Positions 2,447 through 63,794 of a DNA stretch of 64,000 nucleotides are shown here, one piece after another (positions within the stretch are counted from its first letter, which is position 1; every line of letters starts with the position of its first letter). This DNA comes from Escherichia coli. GTDB lineage: Bacteria > Pseudomonadota > Gammaproteobacteria > Enterobacterales > Enterobacteriaceae. The notes beneath the pieces were generated by a model. It had not been told where the DNA came from. It worked only from the letters and a program-made list of their open reading frames with translations, and did no database searches. Made by a program: the position numbers and the translations under genes. The stretch lies in assembly GCF_029227855.1 (NCBI RefSeq), contig NZ_CP074358.1; one strand, 5' to 3'.

Positions 2447-3538
2447 TTACAGATCTCCGTACAGGCAGCGCAGCCCGGTCAGGGCCTCCGCCAGCGGGCC
2501 TTCTTGACACCGCGTGGCGAGCTCCCGGACCAGCGTCTCAAAGGCCTCCGCCGGCATAAAAATCCGCAGGCCGTCTATCCCGAAGAAGCCCTCCGGCGTG
2601 ACGTTTCCGGGCGGGGAGAACATCACTCGCTCCCCCTGGTGACCGTGCGTCAGGGCTTCCGGATGCCGGGCATACAGCGTGAACAGGCCCAGCAGTTCGG
2701 ATAACGCTTCCCAGCCGTACGGCACCACGAAGTCCTGGCCGGTGATCAGCAGGTGCAGACGGGGTGTGGTGTACCAGGCCCCCGGGCGTTCTCCGGGGTG
2801 CTGGCCGTCAACGCGGATCTCCAGGCGCAGCGTGCCGGCCTCAATGGTTTCCGTGACGGCAGAAATAACCGGGCGCAGCTCCTGTGCCAGCGTTCTTGCC
2901 TGTTCTGTGTTCCAGTCCAGGCCGCGCAGCATCAACGGGAAAACAGCTTTCAGCCGCGGCAGGGTGAAGATTTCTGCCAGCACCGCGTCCGGCACCTCCG
3001 CCAGGCCAAAACAGTCGCTCTCGAGCGGACGCAGGAGGTGTTCGGCATACATCTGATCCACCACGGGGCGCAGCGCTGCCCGGAAGGCTTCAAACTCTTC
3101 CGTCCAGTTTTTCCCGGCCAGGCGGAAAATCCCCTTCAGGTAGTGACCGTCCACAGGGCGATCGTGCTCCACCTGCCAGGCCAGCAGGTTGCCAGTGATG
3201 TCCAGCAGCGTGTCCAGGGCCGGGAGTGTGGCCAGCCTATTATGCCCGCGCAGGAAGGCCTCCCTGACGTGAACCAGGACAAAGCGCAGTTCGTCGCGGG
3301 AGAGCGCTGACGTGCCGAAGGTCTGGCCCAGAATGATATGCCGGTACAGCTGCCGGACCGTGGCCTCCGGATCGGCAATGAGCTGAAAATACCCGTCACC
3401 GGGCGCGACCGTTTTCAGGCCGTCATCGAGGAAGCGTTCGGCTAGGGCGTTGACCGAAGTATTTTCCCGACCGGCACGCGTTTTCAGCGCCTCGATAAGT
3501 TTTTTGTGAAAACGCAGGTTAAGCTGGCTTAGCATCAT
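2447..3538 (-). CDS. pifC: 363 aa protein with N-terminal ribbon-helix-helix/Arc-like motif; probable PifC (RepC) autoregulator of the pif operon
   Basis: N-terminus LNLRFHKKLIEALKTRAGRENTSVNALAERFLDDGL resembles RHH DNA-binding domain; ~40 kDa; immediately upstream of and coupled to the KAP NTPase gene. Confidence 0.55.
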   Translation of the reverse strand: MMLSQLNLRFHKKLIEALKTRAGRENTSVNALAERFLDDGLKTVAPGDGYFQLIADPEATVRQLYRHIILGQTFGTSALSRDELRFVLVHVREAFLRGHNRLATLPALDTLLDITGNLLAWQVEHDRPVDGHYLKGIFRLAGKNWTEEFEAFRAALRPVVDQMYAEHLLRPLESDCFGLAEVPDAVLAEIFTLPRLKAVFPLMLRGLDWNTEQARTLAQELRPVISAVTETIEAGTLRLEIRVDGQHPGERPGAWYTTPRLHLLITGQDFVVPYGWEALSELLGLFTLYARHPEALTHGHQGERVMFSPPGNVTPEGFFGIDGLRIFMPAEAFETLVRELATRCQEGPLAEALTGLRCLYGDL

Positions 3539-17625: not shown

Positions 17626-17853
17626 TCTTTAAAAATCAGGATTTATTTCAGGCTCCGGCAATACGCATTTATGTGTTCTGTCAGTCATCCGGCTGGCAGG
17701 TAATGAGAACGCAGGAACAGAAGGAGGAAAACACCGGAGAACGTCAGACGCAGATATGAAAAAAGCAGGTCAGGGACCTGCTTAATCCACACCGCAGAGA
17801 CTGCACGAACAGTCTTTACGGTTTCATTAATTAACGTCATAAGAGGCTAAATT

Positions 17854-18084
17854 ATGACAGTAAGTATTGTTTCACCTTCCGCAGCGGCTGTAAAGCCCCG
17901 CCGTCATCCCCGTTGCAGACGCGAAGACATCCCCGCGCCGGAAATTGACCCCGTGCTGAAAGCCTTCGGGCGACACATTGCCCGGAGTTTTCACCGGGGG
18001 CGTGGTGTACACATCCCCGCCATGAAAAACACGGCCTTCGGGCAGGTGCTCCGCACACTCGAACTGAAACGCGCTTTTAACTGA
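17854..18084 (+). CDS. Small basic hypothetical protein (76 aa)
   Basis: First ORF after repeat copy A; RBS agagg about 10 nt upstream. Confidence 0.35.
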   Translation: MTVSIVSPSAAAVKPRRHPRCRREDIPAPEIDPVLKAFGRHIARSFHRGRGVHIPAMKNTAFGQVLRTLELKRAFN

Positions 18085-25056: not shown

Positions 25057-25249
25057 TGCGGCAACAATCACACGGATTTCCCGTGAACGGTCTGAATGAG
25101 CGGATTATTTTCAGGGAAAGTGAGTGTGGTCAGCGTGCAGGTATATGGGCTATGATGTGCCCGGCGCTTGAGGCTTTCTGCCTCATGACGTGAAGGTGGT
25201 TTGTTGCCGTGTTGTGTGGCAGAAAGAAGATAGCCCCGTAGTAAGTTAA

Positions 25250-25320
25250 TTTTCATTAACCACCACGAGGCATCCCTATGTCTAGTCCACATCAGGATAG
25301 CCTCTTACCGCGCTTTGCGC
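25250..25320 (-). ncRNA. sok: Candidate Sok-like antisense RNA of the hok/mok locus (approximate coordinates)
   Basis: Inferred from hok/sok architecture; region antisense to the mok translation-initiation region. Confidence 0.35.
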
Positions 25321-25490
25321 AAGGAGAAGAAGGCCATGAAACTACCACGAAGTTCCCTTGTCTGGTGTGTGTTGATCGTGTGTCTCACACTGTTGATATT
25401 CACTTATCTGACACGAAAATCGCTGTGCGAGATTCGTTACAGAGACGGACACAGGGAGGTGGCGGCTTTCATGGCTTACGAATCCGGTAA
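25278..25490 (+). CDS. mok: Mok-like overlapping reading frame (modulator of hok translation)
   Basis: 70-codon ORF overlapping hok in another frame, as in hok/sok loci. Confidence 0.5.
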
Positions 25491-25494
25491 GTAG
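25336..25494 (+). CDS. hok: Hok-family membrane toxin (52 aa)
   Basis: [52 protein letters not shown]; not in the ORF track because <60 aa; RBS aggagaag. Confidence 0.9.
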
Positions 25495-25744
25495 CAACCT
25501 GGAGGCGGGCGCAGGCCCGCCTTTTCAGGACTGATGCTGGTCTGACTACTGAAGCGCCTTTATAAAGGGGCTGCTGGTTCGCCGGTAGCCCCTTTCTCCT
25601 TGCTGATGTTGTACGGGCATGAACAACCTGACTTCAGGAAGGTCGTTTCCCTTCAGGAACGGGGATGAACGCGCGCCTGCGGCGCCCGTTCTTTTCCCCC
25701 GCCTTCTCTGGTTATGGCCTGTCAGAAATCACATCACCTTCCCT

Positions 25745-29247: not shown

Positions 29248-29354
29248 AAGAAATTTGACTTCGTTCAAATATCAGAGTTTTTATGATTTAAAAAGGTGAC
29301 AGTACGAAAGATAATTAGTATATTAATTACGTGGTTAATGCCACGTTAAAATTT

Positions 29355-29435
29355 GAATTTGAAAATCGCCGATGCAGGGAGTTCTCTCCTCCCTGCATCG
29401 ACTGTCCATAGAATCCTTTGTGAGGAGGTTCCTAT
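29355..29435 (-). ncRNA. finP: FinP antisense RNA (approximate), complementary to the traJ leader
   Basis: 12-bp perfect hairpin cgatgcagggag-ttctctc-ctccctgcatcg at 29370-29400 in the traJ 5' UTR; architecture of FinOP systems. Confidence 0.5.
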
Positions 29436-30123
29436 GTATCCGATGGATCGTATTCAACAAAAACATGCTCGTCAAATAGATCTGCTGGAAAATCTGACGG
29501 CAGTTATTCAGGATTATCCAAATCCAGCCTGTATCAGGGACGAAACTGGAAAATTTATTTTTTGCAATACGCTGTTTCATGAGTCATTTCTTACACAAGA
29601 TCAAAGTGCTGAAAAATGGCTTCTGTCGCAGAGAGATTTTTGTGAATTGATCTCTGTCACAGAGATGGAAGCATACAGGAATGAGCATACGCATCTTAAT
29701 CTTGTAGAGGATGTTTTTATTCAGAACAGATTCTGGACAATATCTGTCCAGTCATTTCTTAATGGACACAGAAATATCATTCTGTGGCAATTTTATGATG
29801 CTGCTCATGTTCGTCATAAAGACAGTTATAATCAAAAAACGATTGTCAGTGATGATATCAGAAATATAATCAGAAGAATGAGTGATGATTCTTCTGTATC
29901 ATCATATGTAAATGATGTCTTTTACTTATATAGCACCGGAATCAGTCATAATGCTATAGCAAGAATATTAAACATATCCATCTCCACATCAAAGAAACAC
30001 GCGTCTCTGATATGCGACTACTTCTCTGTTTCTAATAAAGATGAGTTAATCATCTTACTCTACAATAAAAAGTTTATTCATTATTTGTACGAGAAGGCTA
30101 TGTGTATCATAAATACGCGTTAA
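29434..30123 (+). CDS. traJ: TraJ transfer activator (229 aa)
   Basis: ATG 29434 with gaggagg RBS; AT-rich gene; position between traM and traY. Confidence 0.85.
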   Translation: MYPMDRIQQKHARQIDLLENLTAVIQDYPNPACIRDETGKFIFCNTLFHESFLTQDQSAEKWLLSQRDFCELISVTEMEAYRNEHTHLNLVEDVFIQNRFWTISVQSFLNGHRNIILWQFYDAAHVRHKDSYNQKTIVSDDIRNIIRRMSDDSSVSSYVNDVFYLYSTGISHNAIARILNISISTSKKHASLICDYFSVSNKDELIILLYNKKFIHYLYEKAMCIINTR

Positions 30124-47183: not shown

Positions 47184-50002
47184 ATGAAGTTTATGTGATT
47201 GCCGGTGGTGAGTGGTTGCGGAATAACCTGAACGCCATTGCCGCCTTTATGGGAACCAGGACGTGGGATTCCATTGAAAAAATTGCGCTCACATTGTCTG
47301 TTCTCGCGGTGGCCGTGATGTGGGTACAGCGGCACAACGTGATGGATTTGCTGGGCTGGGTGGCCGTGTTTGTGCTTATCAGCCTGCTGGTTAATGTCCG
47401 CACATCGGTGCAGATTATTGATAACAGTGACCTGGTCAAAGTTCACCGGGTGGATAATGTACCGGTCGGACTGGCGATGCCACTTTCACTGACGACCCGT
47501 ATCGGGCATGCAATGGTGGCCAGTTACGAGATGATCTTCACGCAACCGGACAGTGTCACCTACAGCAAAACGGGGATGCTGTTTGGCGCAGAACTGGTAT
47601 CAAAAAGCACCGACTTTTTGTCCCGCAATCCGGAAATCGCCAATCTTTTCCAGGATTATGTGCAGAACTGCGTGATGGGGGATATTTACCTGAACCACAA
47701 ATACACGCTGGAGGAGCTGATGGCCTCCGCTGATCCCTACACGCTGATTTTTTCCCGCCCCAGTCCGCTACGGGGCGTTTATGACAGCAATAATAATTTC
47801 GTGACCTGTAAGGACGCGTCGGTTTCGCTGAAAGACAAGCTGAATCTGGATACACAGAGTGGCGGAAAAACCTGGCATTATTATGCCCAGCAGCTATTTG
47901 GTGGACGCCCTGATCCGAACCTGTTGTTCAGTACGCTGATTGGCGACAGTTACAGTTACTTCTATGGCTCAAGTAAATCAGCCAGCCAGATCATCCGCCA
48001 GAATGTCACCATCAATGCGCTGAAGGAGGGGATCACCAGTTATGCCGCGCGTAATGGTGATTCAGCCAGCCTGGTGAATCTGGCCACCACGTCATCGATG
48101 GAGAAGCAACGTCTGGCACATGTCTCCATCGGTCATGTGGCGATGCGGACACTGCCCATGACGCAGACCATCCTGACGGGGATCGCCATCGGTATTTTCC
48201 CGCTTCTGGTACTGGCGGTTGTCTTCAACAAACTGACGCTATCCGTCCTGAAAGGCTATGTGTTTGCCCTGATGTGGTTGCAGTCATGGCCAATGTTGTA
48301 CGCCATTCTGAACAGCGCCATGACATTTTATGCGAAGCAGAATGGTGCACCGGTGGTGCTCTCGGAAATTTCACAGATACAGCTGAAATACTCCGATCTG
48401 GCTTCCACTGCCGGGTATCTTTCCATGATGATCCCGCCATTATCCTGGATGATGGTCAGGGGACTCGGGGCCGGATTTTCCAGTGTGTACAGCCATTTCG
48501 CTTCCTCTGCTATCAGCCCGACTGCCAGTGCGGCAGGTAGTGTGGTTGACGGTAATTACTCCTACGGCAACATGCAGACGGAAAACGTGAACGGCTTCAG
48601 CTGGAGCACCAACAGCACCACGTCGTTTGGTCAGATGATGTACCAGACCGGCAGTGGCGCAACCGCCACACAGACCCGTGACGGTAATATGGTGATGGAT
48701 GCGAGCGGGGCGATGTCCCGTTTACCGGTCGGTATCAATGCAACGCGTCAGATTGCGGCGGCACAACAGGAAATGGCCCGGGAGGCGTCGAACAGAGCAG
48801 AAAGCGCCCTGCATGGGTTCAGCAGCAGTATTGCCAGTGCCTGGAACTCGCTCAGTCAGTTTGGTTCTAACCGGGGGAGCAGTGATTCTGTCACCGGTGG
48901 TGCTGACAGCACGATGAGCGCACAGGACTCCATGATGGCCAGCCGTATGCGCAGCGCAGTGGAAAGCTATGCGAAGGCGCATAATATCAGTAATGAGCAG
49001 GCGACAAGAGAACTGGCATCAAGAAGTACGAGAGGTTCTGCGGGGATGTATGGCGATGCTCATGCTGAATGGGGGGTTAAACCTAAAATTCTTGGTGTTG
49101 GTGGTGGCGTAGGTGTTAGAGGTGGTGGTCGGGCAAGTATTGACTGGAGTGATGAGGATGCGCATCAGGCCAGCAGTGGTTCACGGGCCAGCCATGATGC
49201 TCGCCATGATATCGATGCCAGGGCTACACAAGACTTTAAAGAGGCCAGCGATTACTTTACCAGTCGCAAGGTCAGTGAATCCGGCAGCCATACGGACAAT
49301 AATGCCGATTCCCGTGTGGACCAGCTGTCTGCAGCCCTGAACTCAGCAAAACAGAGTTACGACCAGTACACGACGAATATGACCCGCAGCCATGAATATG
49401 CTGAAATGGCATCCCGTACTGAAAGCATGAGTGGGCAGATGAGTGAAGACCTGTCGCAACAGTTTGCACAGTATGTGATGAAACACGCGCCGCAGGATGC
49501 CGAAGCTATTCTGACAAACACCAGTTCACCGGAGATTGCAGAACGCCGTCGGGCTATGGCGTGGTCTTTCGTTCAGGAACAGGTGCAGCCTGGTGTTGAT
49601 AATGCCTGGCGTGAATCCCGTGGGGACATCGGTAAAGGAATGGAGAGCGTACCTTCGGGGGGGGGCAGCCAGGATATTATTGCTGATTATCAGGGGCATC
49701 AGGCCATTATTGAGCAAAGAACGCAGGACAGTAATATCCGTAATGATGTAAAACATCAGGTTGATAATATGGTCACAGAATACCGAGGCAATATCGGAGA
49801 TACTCAGAGCAGCATACGTGGCGAAGAAAATATTGTAGGAAGACAGTATTCTGAACTACAAAATCACCATAAAACAGAGGCATTATCTCAGAATAATAAA
49901 TATAATGAAGAAAAATCGGGTCAGGAAAGAATGCCCGGGGCTGACAGTCCACAGGAACTGATGAAAAGAGCAAAGGAGTATCAGGATAAGCACAAGCAAT
50001 AA
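47180..50002 (+). CDS. traG: TraG (F-type, VirB6-like N-terminal domain plus mating-pair stabilisation/entry-exclusion C-terminal domain)
   Basis: 940 aa; polytopic N-terminal half, hydrophilic C-terminal half. Confidence 0.95.
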   Translation: MNEVYVIAGGEWLRNNLNAIAAFMGTRTWDSIEKIALTLSVLAVAVMWVQRHNVMDLLGWVAVFVLISLLVNVRTSVQIIDNSDLVKVHRVDNVPVGLAMPLSLTTRIGHAMVASYEMIFTQPDSVTYSKTGMLFGAELVSKSTDFLSRNPEIANLFQDYVQNCVMGDIYLNHKYTLEELMASADPYTLIFSRPSPLRGVYDSNNNFVTCKDASVSLKDKLNLDTQSGGKTWHYYAQQLFGGRPDPNLLFSTLIGDSYSYFYGSSKSASQIIRQNVTINALKEGITSYAARNGDSASLVNLATTSSMEKQRLAHVSIGHVAMRTLPMTQTILTGIAIGIFPLLVLAVVFNKLTLSVLKGYVFALMWLQSWPMLYAILNSAMTFYAKQNGAPVVLSEISQIQLKYSDLASTAGYLSMMIPPLSWMMVRGLGAGFSSVYSHFASSAISPTASAAGSVVDGNYSYGNMQTENVNGFSWSTNSTTSFGQMMYQTGSGATATQTRDGNMVMDASGAMSRLPVGINATRQIAAAQQEMAREASNRAESALHGFSSSIASAWNSLSQFGSNRGSSDSVTGGADSTMSAQDSMMASRMRSAVESYAKAHNISNEQATRELASRSTRGSAGMYGDAHAEWGVKPKILGVGGGVGVRGGGRASIDWSDEDAHQASSGSRASHDARHDIDARATQDFKEASDYFTSRKVSESGSHTDNNADSRVDQLSAALNSAKQSYDQYTTNMTRSHEYAEMASRTESMSGQMSEDLSQQFAQYVMKHAPQDAEAILTNTSSPEIAERRRAMAWSFVQEQVQPGVDNAWRESRGDIGKGMESVPSGGGSQDIIADYQGHQAIIEQRTQDSNIRNDVKHQVDNMVTEYRGNIGDTQSSIRGEENIVGRQYSELQNHHKTEALSQNNKYNEEKSGQERMPGADSPQELMKRAKEYQDKHKQ

Positions 50003-53725: not shown

Positions 53726-56700
53726 TGATGAGTATCGCGCAGGTCAGATCGGCCGGAAGTGCCGGTAACTATTATACCGACAAGGATAATTACTATGTGC
53801 TGGGCAGCATGGGAGAACGCTGGGCCGGCAGGGGGGCTGAACAGCTGGGACTGCAGGGCAGTGTCGATAAGGATGTTTTTACCCGTCTTCTGGAGGGAAG
53901 GCTGCCGGACGGAGCGGATCTAAGCCGCATGCAGGATGGCAGTAACAGGCATCGTCCCGGCTACGACCTGACCTTCTCCGCCCCCAAAAGTGTCTCCATG
54001 ATGGCCATGTTAGGTGGCGATAAGCGCCTGATTGATGCACATAACCAGGCCGTGAACTTTGCTGTTCGTCAGGTGGAGGCGCTGGCCTCCACACGGGTGA
54101 TGACGGACGGACAGTCAGAAACGGTGCTGACCGGTAATCTGGTGATGGCACTGTTTAACCACGACACCAGTCGCGATCAGGAACCACAGTTACACACGCA
54201 TGCGGTGGTGGCTAATGTCACGCAGCATAACGGTGAGTGGAAGACACTGAGCAGTGACAAAGTGGGGAAAACGGGGTTCATTGAGAATGTGTACGCTAAT
54301 CAGATTGCCTTTGGCAGGCTCTATCGGGAAAAACTGAAAGAGCAGGTTGAGGCGCTGGGCTATGAAACCGAAGTGGTGGGTAAGCACGGTATGTGGGAGA
54401 TGCCGGGCGTACCGGTGGAGGCCTTTTCCGGACGCTCACAGGCTATCCGAGAGGCCGTCGGGGAAGATGCCTCGCTGAAATCCCGGGATGTGGCGGCACT
54501 GGATACGCGAAAATCCAAACAGCACGTCGATCCTGAAGTCAGAATGGCTGAATGGATGCAGACGCTGAAGGAAACCGGGTTCGACATCCGGGCATATCGT
54601 GACGCGGCGGATCAGCGTGCGGAGACCCGCACGCAGGCGCCCGGGGCTGTTTCACTGGAGGGGCCGGATGTGCAGCAGGCGGTGACACAGGCGATTGCCG
54701 GATTAAGTGAACGAAAAGTGCAGTTTACGTACACGGACGTGCTGGCCAGAACAGTCGGCATACTGCCGCCGGAAAATGGTGTGATTGAACGGGCACGCGC
54801 CGGTATCGATGAGGCCATCAGCCGTGAGCAGCTCATCCCCCTCGATCGTGAGAAGGGGCTGTTCACGTCCGGGATTCATGTGCTCGATGAGCTGTCAGTC
54901 CGGGCACTCAGTCGTGACATCATGAAACAGAACCGGGTGACCGTACATCCGGAGAAAAGTGTCCCCCGGACGGCCGGTTACAGCGATGCGGTCAGTGTTT
55001 TGGCACAGGATCGCCCGTCGCTGGCTATTGTGTCCGGGCAGGGCGGTGCAGCCGGGCAGCGTGAGCGGGTGGCGGAGCTGGTCATGATGGCCCGGGAGCA
55101 GGGGCGGGAGGTGCAGATTATCGCCGCTGACCGTCGCTCGCAGATGAACCTGAAGCAGGATGAACGGCTGTCCGGTGAGCTGATAACCGGACGTCGTCAG
55201 CTGCAGGAGGGCATGGCCTTCACGCCGGGCAATACTGTTATCGTTGACCAGGGCGAAAAACTCTCCCTGAAAGAGACGTTAACCCTGCTGGACGGTGCTG
55301 CACGTCATAACGTACAGGTCCTGATAACCGACAGCGGGCAGCGAACCGGTACAGGCAGTGCACTGATGGCCATGAAAGATGCCGGGGTGAACACATATCG
55401 CTGGCAGGGGGGAGAACAGCGGCCGGCCACCATCATCAGTGAACCGGACCGTAATGTCCGCTATGCCCGGCTGGCAGGAGATTTTGCGGCCAGCGTGAAA
55501 GCCGGAGAAGAGAACGTGGCACAGGTCAGCGGGGTACGGGAACAGGCCATACTGACACAGGCCATTCGCAGTGAGCTGAAAACACAGGGCGTGCTCGGAC
55601 GCCCGGAGGTAACCATGACCGCCCTGTCGCCGGTCTGGCTGGACAGCCGGAGCCGTTATCTGCGGGATATGTACCGTCCGGGGATGGTGATGGAGCAGTG
55701 GAACCCGGAGACACGCAGTCATGACCGCTATGTTATCGACCGGGTGACGGCGCAGAGTCACAGCCTGACCCTGCGGGATGCGCAGGGTGAAACGCAGGTG
55801 GTGCGTATTTCCTCCCTGGACAGCAGCTGGTCGCTGTTCCGGCCGGAAAAAATGCCGGTGGCAGACGGCGAGCGACTGAGGGTGACAGGGAAAATTCCCG
55901 GACTCCGCGTCTCCGGCGGTGACCGCCTGCAGGTGGCATCCGTCAGTGAAGATGCGATGACGGTTGTTGTGCCGGGGCGGGCTGAACCGGCCTCCCTGCC
56001 TGTGAGCGATTCACCATTCATGGCACTGAAGCTGGAGAACGGCTGGGTGGAAACGCCAGGGCATTCCGTCAGCGACAGTGCGACGGTTTTTGCCTCCGTC
56101 ACACAGATGGCAATGGACAATGCCACCCTGAACGGTCTGGCCCGCAGTGGTCGTGATGTCCGGCTGTATTCCTCACTGGATGAAACCCGTACTGCGGAAA
56201 AACTTGCCCGCCATCCCTCCTTTACGGTGGTTTCTGAGCAGATAAAGGCGCGTGCCGGTGAGACATTGCTGGAAACCGCTATCAGTCTGCAGAAAGCCGG
56301 ACTTCACACGCCGGCACAGCAGGCCATTCATCTGGCCCTTTCTGTGGTGGAAAGTAAAAACCTGGCCTTCAGCATGGTGGACCTGCTGACAGAGGCGAAG
56401 TCGTTTGCTGCAGAAGGAACCAGTTTTGTTGACCTGGGACGGGAAATCAATACGCAGATAAAACGCGGTGATTTACTGCATGTGGATGTGGCAAAAGGCT
56501 ATGGCACAGACCTGCTGGTTTCCCGTGCGTCGTATGAGGCAGAAAAGAGCATTCTTCGCCATATTCTCGAAGGTAAGGAGGCGGTCACGCCGCTGATGGA
56601 GAGAGTACCTGGCGAACTCATGGAGAAACTGACATCAGGACAGCGTGCCGCCACCCGCATGATACTGGAAACGTCCGACCGTTTCACGGTGGTGCAGGGC

Positions 56701-59761: not shown

Positions 59762-59815
59762 CGGGTGTGGTATCTTTGGCCGCAAGAGGATGATTCGTCA
59801 GAGGCAGAACACAGC

Positions 59816-60376
59816 ATGACAGAGCAGAAGCGACCGGTACTGACACTGAAGCGGAAGACAGAGGGAACAGCGCCTGTCCGCAGCCGGAAAACCATCATCA
59901 ATGTCACCACGCCACCAAAATGGAAGGTGAAAAAGCAGAAGCTGGCGGAGAAAGCGGCTCGGGAGGCAGAGCTGGCGGCAAAAAAAGCGCAGGCCAGACA
60001 GGCGCTGTCCATTTATCTGAACCTGCCCACACTGGATGAAGCCGTGAACACCCTGAAGCCCTGGTGGCCGGGATTATTTGACGGTGACACCCCCCGGCTT
60101 CTGGCCTGCGGTATCCGGGACGTGTTACTGGAAGACGTGGCGCAGCGGAATATCCCGCTCTCGCATAAAAAACTGCGCAGGGCGCTGAAGGCCATCACCC
60201 GTTCAGAAAGCTATCTGTGTGCCATGAAAGCCGGTGCCTGCCGGTATGACACGGAAGGGTATGTGACGGAGCATATTTCTCAGGAGGAGGAAGCGTATGC
60301 GGCAGAGCGTCTGGATAAAATCCGTCGCCAGAACCGGATAAAGGCAGAACTTCAGGCCGTGCTTGATGAGAAATAA
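59816..60376 (+). CDS. finO: FinO fertility-inhibition RNA chaperone (186 aa), apparently intact
   Basis: [17 protein letters not shown]...; uninterrupted reading frame; hairpin gcctcc-N10-ggaggc after stop. Confidence 0.9.
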
Positions 60377-61233
60377 AAAAAAGCCTCCATCAGAGAGAGG
60401 AGGCAGGGAAATAAGGCTTAAAAGGAAATAACTTCCGTACCCGAAAGGAAGCCAGTCCACTGAATTATTTACCACAATAATACTGACGACTAAAAGGGAG
60501 GGGCAGAAAAATGAATGGATTCAGAAACAGTTCACGGAACGGTCAGGTCTGGCGCTGGCAGCGTGCCGGAAGCCGGGCCGTTATTCTGGAGGTCAGTGGA
60601 CGCTGGATGGATGCGGCAGAAGCATGGCGACGGGCTGCCGGTGTTGCGCCCCGGACAGACTGGCGGCAGTTTGCCCGAAAAAGGGCTGCACACTGCCACC
60701 GGCGCTGCCGGGGAAGGGTGTAACGAAAAAAGCAGCCTTCATTACTCCTGGAGTCAGAAGGCTGAATAATGCATGAGATTTACTTTTTTAATCTCCGGTC
60801 GGGTAGTATGACCGGACAACTCTGAGTAGCACAGAGTTTTTTTCCGTATTAAGTCGTGATTTTATATTTTGTGATTTATTTCACAAAATAAGGTGTTATT
60901 CAATGTGTGCTGCAATATTCAGGATGCCTGAAATACAGGTGCCATTTATTTGATATGGAGAATAACATGAGGGAATATATTCCACTGGTATTATTTATCT
61001 TTTCATAGCCGGTATTGTCTGCAGATATTTATGGGCAGGTTGTTCGTGTACTGGGCCAGCAGGAAAGTCTGTGCAGAAGCTTACGGTTTGAATAAGTTGA
61101 ACCCCATAAGACTCTGATTAATATAATTTGTGGCACACAGATACTTGCGGGAAAAGTGTTTCGCACTGAATCTTAACTGGAAATGTAAACTATTTTTAAC
61201 ACCCCCAAAATCCTTTTGGGGAACAACTCATGC

Positions 61234-61551
61234 TTACAATTTCTGCCCCATACATTTTCTCCAGGCACTCCCCTCATTACCATTGTCGAGGAACGTAGAG
61301 GTTGCATATGGAATGCCTCTGATTTTTGTTGATGTGAATGGGCCATCAGACGTCGAAGTTGTACGGAGTTTTGATGTTAGTACGTATTTACCACTTATGC
61401 CTTTCTCTGCCAGAGCTCTTGATTTTATGATAACTAAATCTGCACATTTCTCTGCGGCTACATATTGCGGGTCTTTTTCAACCTTTCCAGCACATGCAGT
61501 TATCGTTAAAACGGTAGCGGCGGCTAACAACTTACCTGGTTTCATCTTCAT
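61234..61551 (-). CDS. Putative lipoprotein (105 aa), unknown function
   Basis: Signal peptide with lipobox LTITACAG; modest RBS. Confidence 0.45.
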   Translation of the reverse strand: MKMKPGKLLAAATVLTITACAGKVEKDPQYVAAEKCADLVIIKSRALAEKGISGKYVLTSKLRTTSTSDGPFTSTKIRGIPYATSTFLDNGNEGSAWRKCMGQKL

Positions 61552-61888
61552 ACCTTATTGGGTGTATTAAAAACAGTAGGCTGCCAAAGTCTTAAACAAG
61601 TTTCAATTCTCCATGACTGCTCAACATCAGACAGAGGGAATTCCCATTCTGGACCAGCGGGAGCATACGAACAATAATTTACGGTTTCGCGCTATAGCTG
61701 GCTCAAGTTAGGTTGGACCCTGAATCTCCAGACAACCAATATCTGATCGCGCCAGTGGTGGCAGTTATTAAGCAACAGGGAATGTAGTATTATCGCGGCG
61801 GGTGTCTGAGCCTTTCTGGTTCAGGCAAGACGCAGGTACCAGAAATGCGAAGACCCCACTTGTTAATCCATTAACTCGTGAGGTCTGC

Positions 61889-62095
61889 ATGAAGTACCTT
61901 AACACTACTGATTGTAGCCTCTTCCTTGCAGAGAGGTCAAAGTTTATGACGAAATATGCCCTTATCGGGTTGCTCGCCGTGTGCGCCACGGTGTTGTGTT
62001 TTTCACTGATATTCAGGGAACGGTTATGTGAGCTGAATATTCACAGAGGAAATACAGTGGTGCAGGTAACTCTGGCCTACGAAGCACGGAAGTAA
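61889..62095 (+). CDS. srnB: SrnB/Hok-family membrane toxin (68-aa frame; Hok-like core from internal Met at 61946)
   Basis: MKYLNTTDCSLFLAERSKFMTKYALIGLLAVCATVLCFSLIFRERLCELNIHRGNTVVQVTLAYEARK; hairpin cggggac-ggaa-gtccccg downstream at ~62104-62128. Confidence 0.85.
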   Translation: MKYLNTTDCSLFLAERSKFMTKYALIGLLAVCATVLCFSLIFRERLCELNIHRGNTVVQVTLAYEARK

Positions 62096-62378
62096 GCTGC
62101 CGGGCGGGGACGGAAGTCCCCGCTTTCCGGAAGTGTGAGGTATTTCAGGGGCAGACACCCTATATACCAGAAACAGCCGGTCCCGCCCGGGGCCGGCACC
62201 CTGGCTAAGGCATTTCCAGCTTTTCAGTCATTTCATTATCAAAATCACATTAAACGGTCGTAATCAGACATGATTTGTGCGCCAACACAGATCATCGTCA
62301 CAACTTTCAAGTCGCTGATTTCAAAAAACTGTAGTATTCTCTGCGAAACGATCCCTGTTTGAGAATTGAGGAGGCGAG

Positions 62379-62636
62379 ATGTCGCAGACAGAAAATGCAG
62401 TGACTTCCTCATCAGGCACCAAGCGTACATACCGGAAAGGTAACCCTGTTCCGGCCAGAGAGAGGCAAAGAGCTTCTCTGGCTCGCAGAAGCAACACTCA
62501 TAAGGCTTTTCATGCGGTTATTCAGGCCCGGTTAAAAGACAGGCTGAGTGAACTGGCGGATGAGGAAGGTATTACTCAGGCGCAGATGCTTGAAAAACTG
62601 ATTGAATCAGAGCTGAAACGCAGAGCGACTTCGTAA
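62379..62636 (+). CDS. repA2: RepA2/CopB copy-number repressor of IncFII replicons
   Basis: 85 aa, [11 protein letters not shown]... with GITQAQ helix; gaggagg RBS. Confidence 0.85.
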
Positions 62637-62714
62637 ATATTCACATTCTTGCTTATCTCAGGAGTGAGTGGTAGATTGCTGATCGTTTAAGGAATTTTGT
62701 GGCTGGCCACGCCG

Positions 62715-62810
62715 TAAGGTGGCAGGGAACTGGTTCTGATGTGGATTTACAGGAGCCAGAAAAGTGAAAACCCCGATAATCTTCTCTAACTTTGGCGAGT
62801 CCAGAAAGAT
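62715..62810 (-). ncRNA. copA: CopA-like antisense RNA (approximate), targeting the repA1 leader (CopT)
   Basis: Located between copB and tap; sense strand carries tttggcg loop motif as in CopT; coordinates inferred. Confidence 0.4.
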
Positions 62811-62869
62811 TACCGGGGCTAACAAGAAACTGCATAGAAGCTGTTGCTCTATGCGGGGAGTATAGTTAT

Positions 62870-62944
62870 ATGCCCGGAAAAGTTCAAGACTTCTTTCTGT
62901 GCTCACTCCTTCTGTGCAACATAAGTGCAGGATGGTGTGACTGA
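62870..62944 (+). CDS. tap: Tap/RepA6 leader peptide (24 aa) translationally coupled to repA1
   Basis: [24 protein letters not shown]; stop TGA overlaps repA1 GTG start. Confidence 0.75.
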
Positions 62945-63794
62945 TCTTCAACAAACGTATTACCGCCAGGTAAAGAACCCGAATCCGGTGTTTACACCCC
63001 GTGAAGGAGCAGGAACGCTGCCGTTCTGCGAAAAACTCATGGAAAAGGCGGTGGACTTCACCTCCCGTTTTGATTTCGCCATTCATGTGGCGCATGCCCG
63101 TTCGCGTGGTCTGCGTCGGCGCATGCCACCGGTACTGCGTCGCCGGGCCATTGATGCGCTGCTGCAGGGGCTGTGTTTTCACTATGACCCGCTGGCCAAC
63201 CGCGTCCAGTGCTCCATCACCACGCTGGCCATTGAGTGCGGACTGGCGACGGAGTCTGCTGCCGGAACACTTTCCATCACCCGTGCCACCCGTGCCCTGA
63301 CGTTCCTGTCAGAGCTGGGATTGATTACCTATCAGACGGAATATGACCCGCTTATTGGCTGCTATATTCCGACCGACATCACGTTCACACCGGCGCTGTT
63401 TGCCGCTCTCGATATCTCAGAAGAGGCGGTGGCTTCCGCACGCCGCAGCCGTGTGGAATGGGAAAACAGACAGCGCAAAAAGCAGGGGCTGGATACCCTA
63501 GGTATGGATGAACTGATTGCGAAAGCCTGGCGTTTTGTGCGTGAGCGTTTCCGCAGTTACCAGACAGAGCTTAAGTCCCGGGGAATAAAGCGTGCCCGTG
63601 CGCGTCGTGATGCGAACAGGGAACGCCAGGATATCGTCACCCTGGTGAAACGACAGCTGACACGTGAAATCTCGGAAGGACGCTTCACTGCCAATCGTGA
63701 GGCGGTAAAACGCGAAGTGGAGCGTCGTGTGAAGGAGCGCATGATTCTGTCACGTAACCGTAATTACAGCCGGCTGGCCACAGCCTCCCCCTGA
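62937..63794 (+). CDS. repA1: RepA1 replication initiator of IncFII (RepFIIA) replicon
   Basis: GTG start at 62937; [39 protein letters not shown]... matches recalled RepA1. Confidence 0.9.

What the first reader, a model, noticed from the sequence alone, without database searches (positions are those of the whole stretch)
61780..62128. Second Hok-family locus (srnB-like) between finO and the replicon
The frame 61889-62095 encodes MKYLNTTDCSLFLAERSKFMTKYALIGLLAVCATVLCFSLIFRERLCELNIHRGNTVVQVTLAYEARK, with the Hok-like core starting at the internal Met (61946). A hairpin terminator follows (cggggac-ggaa-gtccccg). The plasmid therefore carries two diverged hok-family toxins at opposite ends of the tra region.
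Basis: partly seen in the sequence, partly recalled or inferred. Interest (0 to 1): 0.3.

Follow-up and report, generated by a model that had tools for sequence, protein, structure and literature searches.

The report
F-plasmid srnB/srnC killer locus
This is an intact copy of the well-known srnB/srnC toxin–antisense RNA "plasmid addiction" module of the F plasmid, found in about a third of complete E. coli genomes, so it is ordinary.

Summary

The locus is the srnB/srnC type I toxin-antitoxin module of plasmid F:
- The 49-aa toxin and the 68-aa in-frame leader frame are 100% identical to F.
- The DNA is 97.8% identical to F over 821 nt. It is base-for-base identical across the antisense gene, its promoter, and the tac, ucb and leader start elements.
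- All defining RNA elements of the hok family are present.

F has the same layout: a hok-type toxin in the leading region and srnB next to the IncFII-type replicon.

1. The hairpin is not the transcript end. It is the conserved post-stop stem-loop that, in hok, ends the processed mRNA.
2. The locus continues to about 62160-62197. The fold-back element (62152-62160) pairs perfectly with the mRNA 5' end (61800-61808).

The locus occurs in 2937 plasmid records and 2004 of 5426 complete E. coli genomes. It is already known and of low interest. Cross-regulation with the hok/sok locus at 25163-25560 is unlikely.

The parts
61765..61793 (+). Inferred srnB promoter. The -10 hexamer is TATTAT at 61788-61793. 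The -35 is weak: TTATTA at 61765-61770 with a 17-bp spacer. The window has A at 61786 where F and five other alleles have G, which removes the TGn extended -10 motif.
   Evidence: Read directly from the sequence and from the alignments to F and to other alleles. The position is 7 nt upstream of the mRNA 5' end implied by the start of the Rfam model. It was not called by the simple promoter scan. The promoter assignment is an inference.
61800..62162 (+). Full-length srnB mRNA, about 362 nt, running from the tac 5' end to just past fbi. It is highly structured.
   Evidence: Rfam RF01794 model position 1 aligns at 61800. MFE is -155.7 kcal/mol, z = -7.8, with 0 of 100 shuffles folding as well. 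The 5'-3' closure is predicted just as in the hok control. The exact ends are inferred by homology and were not measured.
61800..61808 (+). tac element, GGGUGUCUG, at the mRNA 5' end. It pairs with fbi in the full-length RNA and with ucb in the processed RNA.
   Evidence: The Rfam consensus structure pairs 61800-61807 with 61851-61857.
61851..61859 (+). ucb / anti-SD box, AGACCCCAC. It pairs either with the srnB' SD region (closed form) or with tac (open form).
   Evidence: The full-length fold pairs 61851-61859 with 61878-61886. The Rfam structure pairs it with tac. Four pairs flanking the SD differ from hok by changes on both sides, read.
61880..61883 (+). Shine-Dalgarno sequence (GAGG) of the leader frame srnB', 5 nt upstream of ATG 61889.
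   Evidence: The motif and position are the same as the mok SD in the hok locus of this window.
61889..62095 (+). srnB' leader reading frame, the mok analogue.
   Evidence: The product is identical to the F frame. The frame is not conserved among alleles: in L007 it is 19 aa and ends in ATGA on the toxin start.
61911..61940 (-). srnC antisense promoter: -35 TTGACC (61940-61935), 18-nt spacer, -10 TACAAT (61916-61911).
   Evidence: The promoter scan matches 10 of 12 positions. The sequence is identical to F. Both hexamers are kept in all six full-length alleles, and Sal_Tm has TTGACA. PMC12390103 used the endogenous PsrnC on the antisense strand.
61840..61905 (-). SrnC antisense RNA, about 65 nt. 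It has a 14-nt single-stranded 5' tail, a long imperfect hairpin and a U-rich tail. It is complementary to the SD and start codon of srnB'.
   Evidence: Fold is -20.9 kcal/mol, z = -3.2. The architecture matches Sok folded from the other locus. The ends are inferred to within about 3 nt.
61946..62095 (+). srnB toxin gene, 49 aa, Hok/Gef family. Its SD is GAGAGG at 61931-61936.
   Evidence: Pfam PF01848 scores 37.3 bits. The product is 100% identical to F WP_001312851.1. The only differences from F are two synonymous changes, at 61987 and 62047.
62100..62130 (+). Post-stop GC-rich stem-loop (core 62104-62123) followed by UUU. It is the homologue of the 3'-terminal stem-loop of processed (truncated) hok mRNA.
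   Evidence: a hairpin sits in this position, always upstream of fbi, in all 7 family members examined. PMC9841398 describes the last stem-loop of Tr-hok as protecting it against 3' exonucleases.
62152..62160 (+). fbi (fold-back inhibition) element, CAGACACCC. It is the perfect complement of the mRNA 5' end.
   Evidence: It is the only occurrence of this 9-mer in the 64-kb window. It pairs with tac in the MFE structure. Covariation across the family supports the helix.
62176..62197 (+). Downstream GC hairpin, GCCGGUCCC/GGGGCCGGC, with no U-run. It is a possible end of the primary transcript.
   Evidence: Fold is -20.4 kcal/mol but z is only -1.8. It is conserved among srnB alleles. Its role is uncertain.

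Best explanation
The locus is an intact srnB/srnC type I toxin-antitoxin (post-segregational killing) module of the hok/sok family, the same one carried by plasmid F.

Proposed mechanism (homologous elements shown here; the mechanism itself is inferred from hok and F):
1. A stable mRNA of about 362 nt starts at 61800. It is locked shut by pairing of its 5' end (tac, 61800-61808) with fbi (62152-62160). In this form the ucb box (61851-61859) sequesters the SD of the leader frame srnB'.
2. Slow 3' trimming back to the stem-loop at 62100-62126 removes fbi.
3. tac then pairs with ucb, which frees the srnB' translation start.
4. Translation of srnB' is coupled to translation of the 49-aa membrane toxin (61946-62095).
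5. In plasmid-bearing cells, the unstable antisense RNA SrnC binds the srnB' start region, blocks translation and triggers RNase III cleavage. SrnC is about 65 nt and runs on the - strand from about 61905 to 61840, from a near-consensus promoter at 61940-61911.
6. Cells that lose the plasmid lose SrnC first and are killed.
For: Shown here:
- The toxin and leader frame are identical to F, and the DNA is identical to F from 61787 to 61986. That stretch covers tac, ucb, the srnB' start, srnC and its promoter.
- Pfam Hok/Gef is above cut-off, and Rfam RF01794 scores 95 bits.
- The antisense promoter matches 10 of 12 positions.
- SrnC folds like Sok: 5' tail, long hairpin, U tail.
- tac and fbi are complementary at 9 of 9 positions, and the 9-mer is unique in the window.
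- The MFE structure of the full-length RNA closes 5' to 3' and sequesters the SD, exactly as in the hok control. z = -7.8.
- The tac/fbi helix is kept across 6 distinct family members: 92.6% of cells are paired and 4 of 9 pairs show changes on both sides. Slid controls give 28-57%. Within srnB itself, allele L006 has a G-C to A-U swap.
- Enforcing the tac-ucb stem costs +7.6 kcal/mol in the full-length RNA but +3.1 in the truncated RNA. For hok the values are +12.2 and +0.2.
- The post-stop hairpin is conserved upstream of fbi in 7 of 7 loci.

From the literature:
- The hok mechanism: PMC9841398, PMC4147584.
- srnB-srnC of F is a hok/sok homologue: PMC4147584.
- SrnB cloned from an F' strain lyses E. 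coli and SrnC delays this: PMC12390103.
Against: - No expression data exist for this copy. The transcript ends, 3' processing, RNase III cleavage and killing are all inferred by homology.
- The unconstrained MFE of the truncated RNA keeps the SD sequestered. This is also true of the hok positive control, so it is a limit of the method.
- The window has A instead of G at 61786. This removes the TGn extended -10 of a promoter whose -35 is weak, so toxin mRNA output could be lower than in F.
- The NCBIfam Hok models score below their cut-offs: 33 against 89 and 32 against 73.
- No U-rich intrinsic terminator is evident after fbi.
Confidence: 0.93

Rival explanations
1. The copy is a decayed, non-functional remnant, as many chromosomal hok loci and some plasmid srnB copies are. 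It would be carried along passively between finO and the replicon.
For: Decayed srnB alleles do exist:
- L004 has lost the toxin ATG through a 16-nt deletion.
- L005 has its promoter and tac replaced and a frameshift near the C-terminus.
- L008 is truncated.

The window allele has lost the TGn motif at 61786. The exact 60-mer around that position is found in only 12 of 1158 matching E. coli records.
Against: - Every element is intact, and everything except position 61786 in the 5' two-thirds of the locus is identical to the functional F locus.
- The only coding differences from F are synonymous.
- The -10 hexamer TATTAT is retained.
Confidence: 0.05
2. The hairpin at 62104-62123 is the true transcription terminator, so the functional locus ends at about 62128. 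The downstream complementarity would then be irrelevant.
For: - It is a strong GC stem (-22.8 kcal/mol) followed by UUU.
- Similar hairpins with 3-4 U follow the stop codon in relatives, so some termination there cannot be excluded.
Against: - Only three U follow the stem, and the terminator scan did not call it.
- A perfect 9-nt complement of the 5' end lies 29 nt further on. It is unique in 64 kb and covaries with the 5' end across the family.
- In hok, the equivalent hairpin is the 3' end of the processed RNA, not of the primary RNA (PMC9841398).
Confidence: 0.07
3. The 68-aa product of 61889-62095 is the real toxin, and the 49-aa form is not made separately.
For: - The frame is open, has a good SD (GAGG, 5-nt spacing) and is in frame with the toxin in the window, F and L006.
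- Some annotations call the 207-nt CDS.
Against: - The leader frame is not conserved. L007, whose 49-aa toxin is identical (and whose 96.5% identity to the window is shared by many rows, not checked for this deletion), has a 1-nt deletion that makes it a 19-codon ORF ending in ATGA on the toxin start, while the toxin stays identical.
- In hok the leader (mok) is in the +1 frame.
- The Pfam domain begins at residue 23 of the 68-aa frame.
- RefSeq annotates the 49-aa product.
Confidence: 0.08

Closest known systems
srnB/srnC (srnB') locus of E. coli plasmid F (NC_002483, toxin CDS 2926-3075)
   Same: - The 49-aa toxin and the 68-aa leader frame are 100% identical.
- The DNA is 97.8% identical over 821 nt and identical from 61787 to 61986.
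- The neighbours are the same: a hypothetical lipoprotein-like gene upstream, and repA2/copB, tap and the IncFII/FIC replicon downstream.
- A hok-type (flm) locus sits in the leading region, as in F.
   Different: - 18 substitutions over 821 nt.
- One removes the TGn extended -10 (61786 G to A).
- Two are synonymous changes in the toxin.
- The rest lie 3' of fbi and in the spacer to repA2.
- The adjacent replicon here has an uninterrupted repA1 ORF. In the F record no RepA1 CDS is annotated after tap.
hok/mok/sok of plasmid R1 type (the copy in this same window, 25163-25560)
   Same: - Same gene order and the same RNA logic: tac, ucb, leader SD, antisense gene, post-stop hairpin, fbi.
- Both match Rfam RF01794 and Pfam Hok/Gef.
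   Different: - The toxins are only 35-39% identical, and the loci share 240 of 418 aligned nucleotides.
- mok is in the +1 frame, whereas srnB' is in frame 0.
- tac/fbi is GGCGCUU/AAGCGCC in hok and GGGUGUCUG/CAGACACCC in srnB.
- The antisense RNAs are about 53% identical. Non-cognate duplex energies are -34 and -38 kcal/mol, against -124 and -127 for the cognate pairs.
pndA/pndB of IncI plasmids (R483 type; L012 and L013 here)
   Same: - A Hok-family toxin 45-48% identical to SrnB, closer than Hok is.
- An Rfam RF01794 match.
- tac/fbi pairing and a post-stop hairpin.
   Different: - Different plasmid backbone (IncI, next to trbA).
- tac/fbi is GGGCGC/GCGCCC.
- The assignment of L012 and L013 to pnd rests on my recollection of the PndA sequence. 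The records themselves say only 'Hok/Gef family protein'.

Membership tests
Hok/Gef type I toxin family (PF01848) | A toxin of about 50 aa that matches the Hok/Gef profile above the curated cut-off, with an N-terminal hydrophobic helix and conserved Cys residues. | tested here: met
   Scores are 37.3 bits (49 aa) and 36 bits (68 aa) against a cut-off of 22. C13, R24, L27, C28 and G35 are invariant across 7 family members. The NCBIfam HokA and Hok subfamily models match but below their cut-offs: 33 against 89 and 32 against 73.
srnB/srnC of plasmid F | Sequence identity of the toxin, leader and antisense region to the F locus, and the same genomic neighbourhood. | tested here: met
   The protein is 100% identical. 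The DNA is 97.8% identical overall and 100% identical from 61787 to 61986. The locus lies between finO and repA2 as in F-like plasmids.
hok/sok-type type I TA locus | An upstream leader ORF (mok analogue) with its own SD, overlapping the toxin gene. | tested here: met
   GAGG, 5 nt, then ATG at 61889. The frame runs over the toxin start at 61946. Translational coupling itself was not tested.
hok/sok-type type I TA locus | A cis-encoded antisense RNA gene on the opposite strand that covers the leader translation-initiation region. | tested here: met
   At the sequence level only. The - strand promoter TTGACC-18-TACAAT matches 10 of 12 positions. The roughly 65-nt RNA has a 5' tail, a long hairpin and a U-rich end, z = -3.2. 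It overlaps SD 61880-61883 and ATG 61889 and is identical to F. Transcription was not observed.
hok/sok-type type I TA locus | Long-range tac/fbi pairing between the mRNA 5' end and the 3' UTR. | tested here: met
   61800-61808 and 62152-62160 are complementary at 9 of 9 positions, and the 9-mer is unique in the window. The pairing is in the MFE structure. Covariation across the family gives 92.6% paired cells and 4 of 9 pairs changed on both sides. Caveat: the 3' partner was chosen as the best duplex within 130 nt after the stop codon.
hok/sok-type type I TA locus | A ucb box able to pair alternatively with the leader SD (closed form) or with tac (open form). | tested here: met
   SD pairing appears in the full-length fold. 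tac-ucb pairing appears in the Rfam consensus alignment. The enforced open form costs +7.6 kcal/mol in the full-length RNA and +3.1 in the truncated RNA.
hok/sok-type type I TA locus | A stable stem-loop just after the stop codon that forms the 3' end of the processed mRNA. | tested here: met
   62100-62130, -22.8 kcal/mol. It is positionally conserved in 7 of 7 loci. Processing to this point was not tested.
hok/sok-type type I TA locus | A match to the Rfam RF01794 covariance model above its gathering score. | tested here: met
   95.1 bits against 59, over the full model 1-157. The match is on the mRNA-sense strand.
hok/sok-type type I TA locus | Post-segregational or rifampicin-induced killing, 3' processing, and RNase III cleavage of the duplex. 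| not testable with these tools
   Known for F srnB only from the literature (PMC4147584 citing Nielsen 1991 and Gerdes 1992; PMC12390103 for toxicity and the SrnC effect).

The most novel reading that the evidence does not exclude
This rare allele (A at 61786, TGn extended -10 lost) could be a transcriptionally attenuated srnB that no longer contributes to killing. Alternatively, the in-frame 68-aa SrnB' made by F-type alleles could be a second, functionally distinct toxin isoform, absent from the L007-type allele whose leader is a 19-codon ORF.
Probability: 0.08. Interest if true: 0.2.

Novelty: already known. Interest (0 to 1): 0.05.

Why it matters
It matters little beyond correct annotation. 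The srnB/srnC locus has been characterised since the late 1980s and early 1990s, and it is present on thousands of F-like plasmids.

For annotation, three points are useful:
- The functional unit spans about 61765-62197, not just the ORF.
- The toxin is the 49-aa product.
- The Rfam 'sok' hit marks the mRNA leader strand, not the antisense gene.

Carrying two non-cross-reacting hok-family modules (hok/flm and srnB) is the standard F-plasmid maintenance layout.

Tried and rejected
1. Unconstrained MFE folding of the 3'-truncated RNA was expected to show the 'open' translatable form. It did not, either for srnB or for the hok positive control. I therefore used enforced-stem energy differences instead.
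2. I tried to read the primary papers (Thisted 1994, PMID 8168492; Gultyaev 2000, PMC1370018). Neither is held, so transcript lengths and ends for srnB are inferred.
3. When the hok row was included in the tac/fbi mini-alignment, MAFFT shifted its register by one base. hok was left out of the formal pair count and is reported separately.
4. Locus L014 (41% identical toxin, Rfam 52 bits, below threshold) showed no convincing tac/fbi pair. Its 5' end is probably mis-assigned, so it was dropped.
5. The NCBIfam Hok models match only below their cut-offs. I did not treat this as evidence against membership, because Pfam, Rfam and identity to F all agree.
6. I checked for a third Hok-like ORF in the window. 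There is none.
7. The window as a whole is not identical to any single PLSDB record over its first 25 kb, so it is a mosaic F-like plasmid. I did not pursue this.

Full report
**Observation.**
- An ATG at 61889 opens a 68-codon frame ending at TAA 62093-62095. An in-frame ATG lies at 61946.
- The inverted repeat cggggac/ggaa/gtccccg lies at 62105-62122. It extends to a 12-pair structure over 62100-62130 (-22.8 kcal/mol, z = -3.1).
- Small ORFs are plentiful here: 56 of at least 20 aa in 3.5 kb. This one, however, matches Pfam Hok/Gef above the curated cut-off (36-37 bits against 22).
- The region 61800-61956 matches Rfam RF01794 over the whole model at 95 bits against a gathering score of 59.
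- tblastn with SrnB, Hok and PndA finds exactly two Hok-family ORFs in the window, at 25336-25491 and 61946-62092.

**What it is.** The locus is the srnB/srnC module of plasmid F.
- The 821 nt around the locus are 97.8% identical to F (NC_002483) and 100% identical to at least seven other plasmids.
- The 49-aa toxin and the 68-aa frame are identical to F. RefSeq annotates the 49-aa form, WP_001312851.1, as 'Hok/Gef family protein'. One GenBank record calls it 'Protein SrnB'.
- In the pairwise alignment with F, the window is identical from 61787 to 61986. That stretch covers the mRNA 5' end, the leader start region, and the whole antisense gene with its promoter.
- The differences from F are a G to A change at 61786, two synonymous changes in the toxin (61987, 62047), and a cluster 3' of 62160.
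- The neighbours are traI, traX, finO (59765-60376), an ANR-family regulator ORF and a hypothetical minus-strand ORF upstream. Downstream come copB/repA2 (62379-62636), CopA RNA (62762-62852, minus strand), tap and repA1.
- F has the same two-locus layout. It carries a Hok-family toxin (flm) at 63009-63134 between psiB and traM, and srnB next to the RepFIC repA2. [quoted passage not shown]

**Anatomy.** Each element of the published hok scheme (PMC9841398) has a counterpart in the window.
- *5' end.* The Rfam model start puts the mRNA 5' end at 61800. This is 7 nt after a TATTAT -10 hexamer at 61788-61793.
- *tac and fbi.* The first nine bases, GGGUGUCUG, have a perfect reverse complement, CAGACACCC, at 62152-62160. 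This is the only occurrence of that 9-mer in 64 kb.
- *Full-length fold.* The 363-nt RNA folds to -155.7 kcal/mol (z = -7.8). tac pairs with fbi, and the GAGG SD of the leader frame (61880-61883) is sequestered by 61851-59. This is the architecture predicted for the hok locus of the same window, which I used as a positive control.
- *Compensation around the SD.* Between the two loci, four of the pairs flanking the SD differ on both sides while pairing is kept (read).
- *Open form.* The Rfam consensus structure pairs 61800-61807 with 61851-61857, which is the 'open' tac-ucb stem. Enforcing that stem costs +7.6 kcal/mol in the full-length RNA but only +3.1 after truncation at 62127. For hok the values are +12.2 and +0.2. 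In the enforced open form, the SD moves into a small hairpin with 61893-61901, the dcb equivalent.
- *Antisense gene.* On the minus strand there is a promoter, TTGACC-18 nt-TACAAT, at 61940-61911 (10 of 12 positions). It would start an RNA near 61905. The 65-67-nt product has a 14-nt free 5' tail, a long imperfect hairpin and a U-rich tail (z = -3.2). This is the same design as Sok folded from the other locus. It is complementary to the SD and ATG of the leader frame.

**Family-level test.** I fetched diverged Hok-family loci from plasmids of E. coli, Salmonella, Aeromonas and Vibrio (toxins 41-66% identical).
- I defined their 5' ends with the Rfam model.
- In eight of nine loci, the first 6-9 nt have a perfect complement 50-77 nt after the stop codon.
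- In a formal count over six distinct sequences, the helix is 92.6% paired and 4 of 9 pairs are changed on both sides. When the 3' partner is slid by 1-3 columns, pairing drops to 28-57%.
- Within srnB itself, allele L006 changes G61800 to A together with C62160 to U.
- Every locus also has a GC-rich hairpin directly after the stop codon and upstream of fbi.
- Caveat: the 3' partners were chosen as the best duplex in a 130-nt tail, so this count is not blind. A perfect 9-mer in 130 nt is expected about 5e-4 times by chance.

- The hairpin is real but is not the end of the transcript. It has only three U after it and is not called by the terminator scan.
- It corresponds to the stem-loop that forms the 3' end of the processed, translatable mRNA in hok. 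Mutations there expose that RNA to 3' exonucleases (PMC9841398).
- The locus therefore extends at least to 62160, and perhaps to a further hairpin at 62176-62197 that has no U-run.
- The 68-aa frame is the mok analogue (srnB'). Its protein sequence is not conserved.
  - In L007, whose 49-aa toxin is identical, a 1-nt deletion turns it into a 19-codon ORF ending in ATGA on the toxin start.
  - In hok the leader is in the +1 frame.

**Cross-regulation.**
- Hok and SrnB are 35-39% identical.
- Sok and SrnC share 38 of 72 aligned positions.
- Non-cognate antisense-mRNA duplexes are -34 and -38 kcal/mol, against -124 and -127 for the cognate pairs.
- The 5' tails find no equivalent target.
- Cross-talk is therefore unlikely. 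This is an inference and was not tested.

**Prevalence and novelty.**
- The locus is present in 2937 PLSDB plasmids, 2650 of them nearly full length.
- The toxin is at least 99% identical in 1900 plasmid records.
- The locus occurs in 2004 of 5426 complete E. coli genomes, almost always on plasmids.
- SrnB cloned from an F' strain lyses E. coli, and SrnC from its own promoter delays this (PMC12390103).
- The finding is therefore already known and ordinary.

**Limits.**
- Transcript ends, 3' processing, RNase III cleavage and killing are inferred from homology and the literature. The primary srnB papers were not available.
- The A at 61786 removes a TGn extended -10 motif that F and five other alleles keep. 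The exact 60-mer around it is found in only 12 of 1158 matching E. coli records. Whether this lowers expression is unknown.

Noticed in passing
window 61800-61956 and 25162-25338 (+ strand): The Rfam family RF01794, named 'sok antitoxin (CssrC)', matches the mRNA-sense strand at both loci and at all eight fetched relatives. Its consensus structure is the tac-ucb stem of the toxin mRNA leader. An annotation taken from this hit would therefore put 'sok' on the wrong strand. The true antisense genes lie on the minus strand inside the hit.
   Followed up: partly
window 61786: The window has A where F and five other srnB alleles have G. This turns TGGTATTAT into TAGTATTAT and removes the TGn extended -10 of a promoter whose -35 is weak. 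The exact 60-mer 61757-61816 occurs in only 12 of 1158 matching E. coli records. The count is confounded by variation in the upstream flank.
   Followed up: partly
L007:310-369, L004, L005, L008 (srnB alleles on other plasmids): The leader frame varies among srnB alleles. It is 68 aa and in frame in the window, F and L006. It is a 19-codon ORF ending in ATGA on the toxin start in L007 (Klebsiella pneumoniae plasmid pF726925-1). Several copies are decayed: a toxin ATG deleted, tac replaced, or the locus truncated.
   Followed up: partly
window 25163-25560: A complete hok/mok/sok-type locus lies in the leading region. It has a 52-aa Hok, a 70-aa mok in the +1 frame, tac GGCGCUU with fbi AAGCGCC, and a strong terminator-like hairpin at about 25567-25597. 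It sits about 3.8 kb upstream of the traJ leader and FinP (29329-29440). The toxin sequence looks like R1 Hok from memory. I did not check this against an R1 record.
   Followed up: partly
window 61234-61551 (- strand): A 105-aa ORF has a lipoprotein-like N-terminus (MKMKPGKLLAAATVLTITAC) and no Pfam or NCBIfam match. It is annotated 'hypothetical protein' at the same position in F and other plasmids.
   Followed up: no
window 60620-60802 (- strand), overlapping ORF 60511-60723 (+): Rfam AS-pc02 ('antisense to pHK01_099') matches at 190.8 bits. It lies opposite a 70-aa ORF annotated elsewhere as an ANR-family transcriptional regulator, just downstream of finO. Other pHK01-type antisense RNA families also match in the window: AS-traI at 56574-56650, AS-traG at 47899-47984 and AS-pc01 at 17760-17859.
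   Followed up: no
window 62379-63794: An apparently intact IncFII-type replication control region follows srnB. It comprises copB/repA2 (62379-62636), CopA RNA (62762-62852, minus strand, 89.6 bits), the tap leader peptide (about 62870-62944) and an uninterrupted repA1 ORF ending at 63794. In the F record no RepA1 CDS is annotated after tap.
   Followed up: no
L009, L010, L011, L012 (3' UTRs of diverged hok-family loci): In several relatives the fbi element is followed directly by a U-run (for example CAAGCACCC-UUUUU and GCGCCC-UUUCUUCUU). In srnB it is not. Instead a GC hairpin without a U-run follows 15 nt later. How the primary srnB transcript ends is unclear from the sequence.
   Followed up: no
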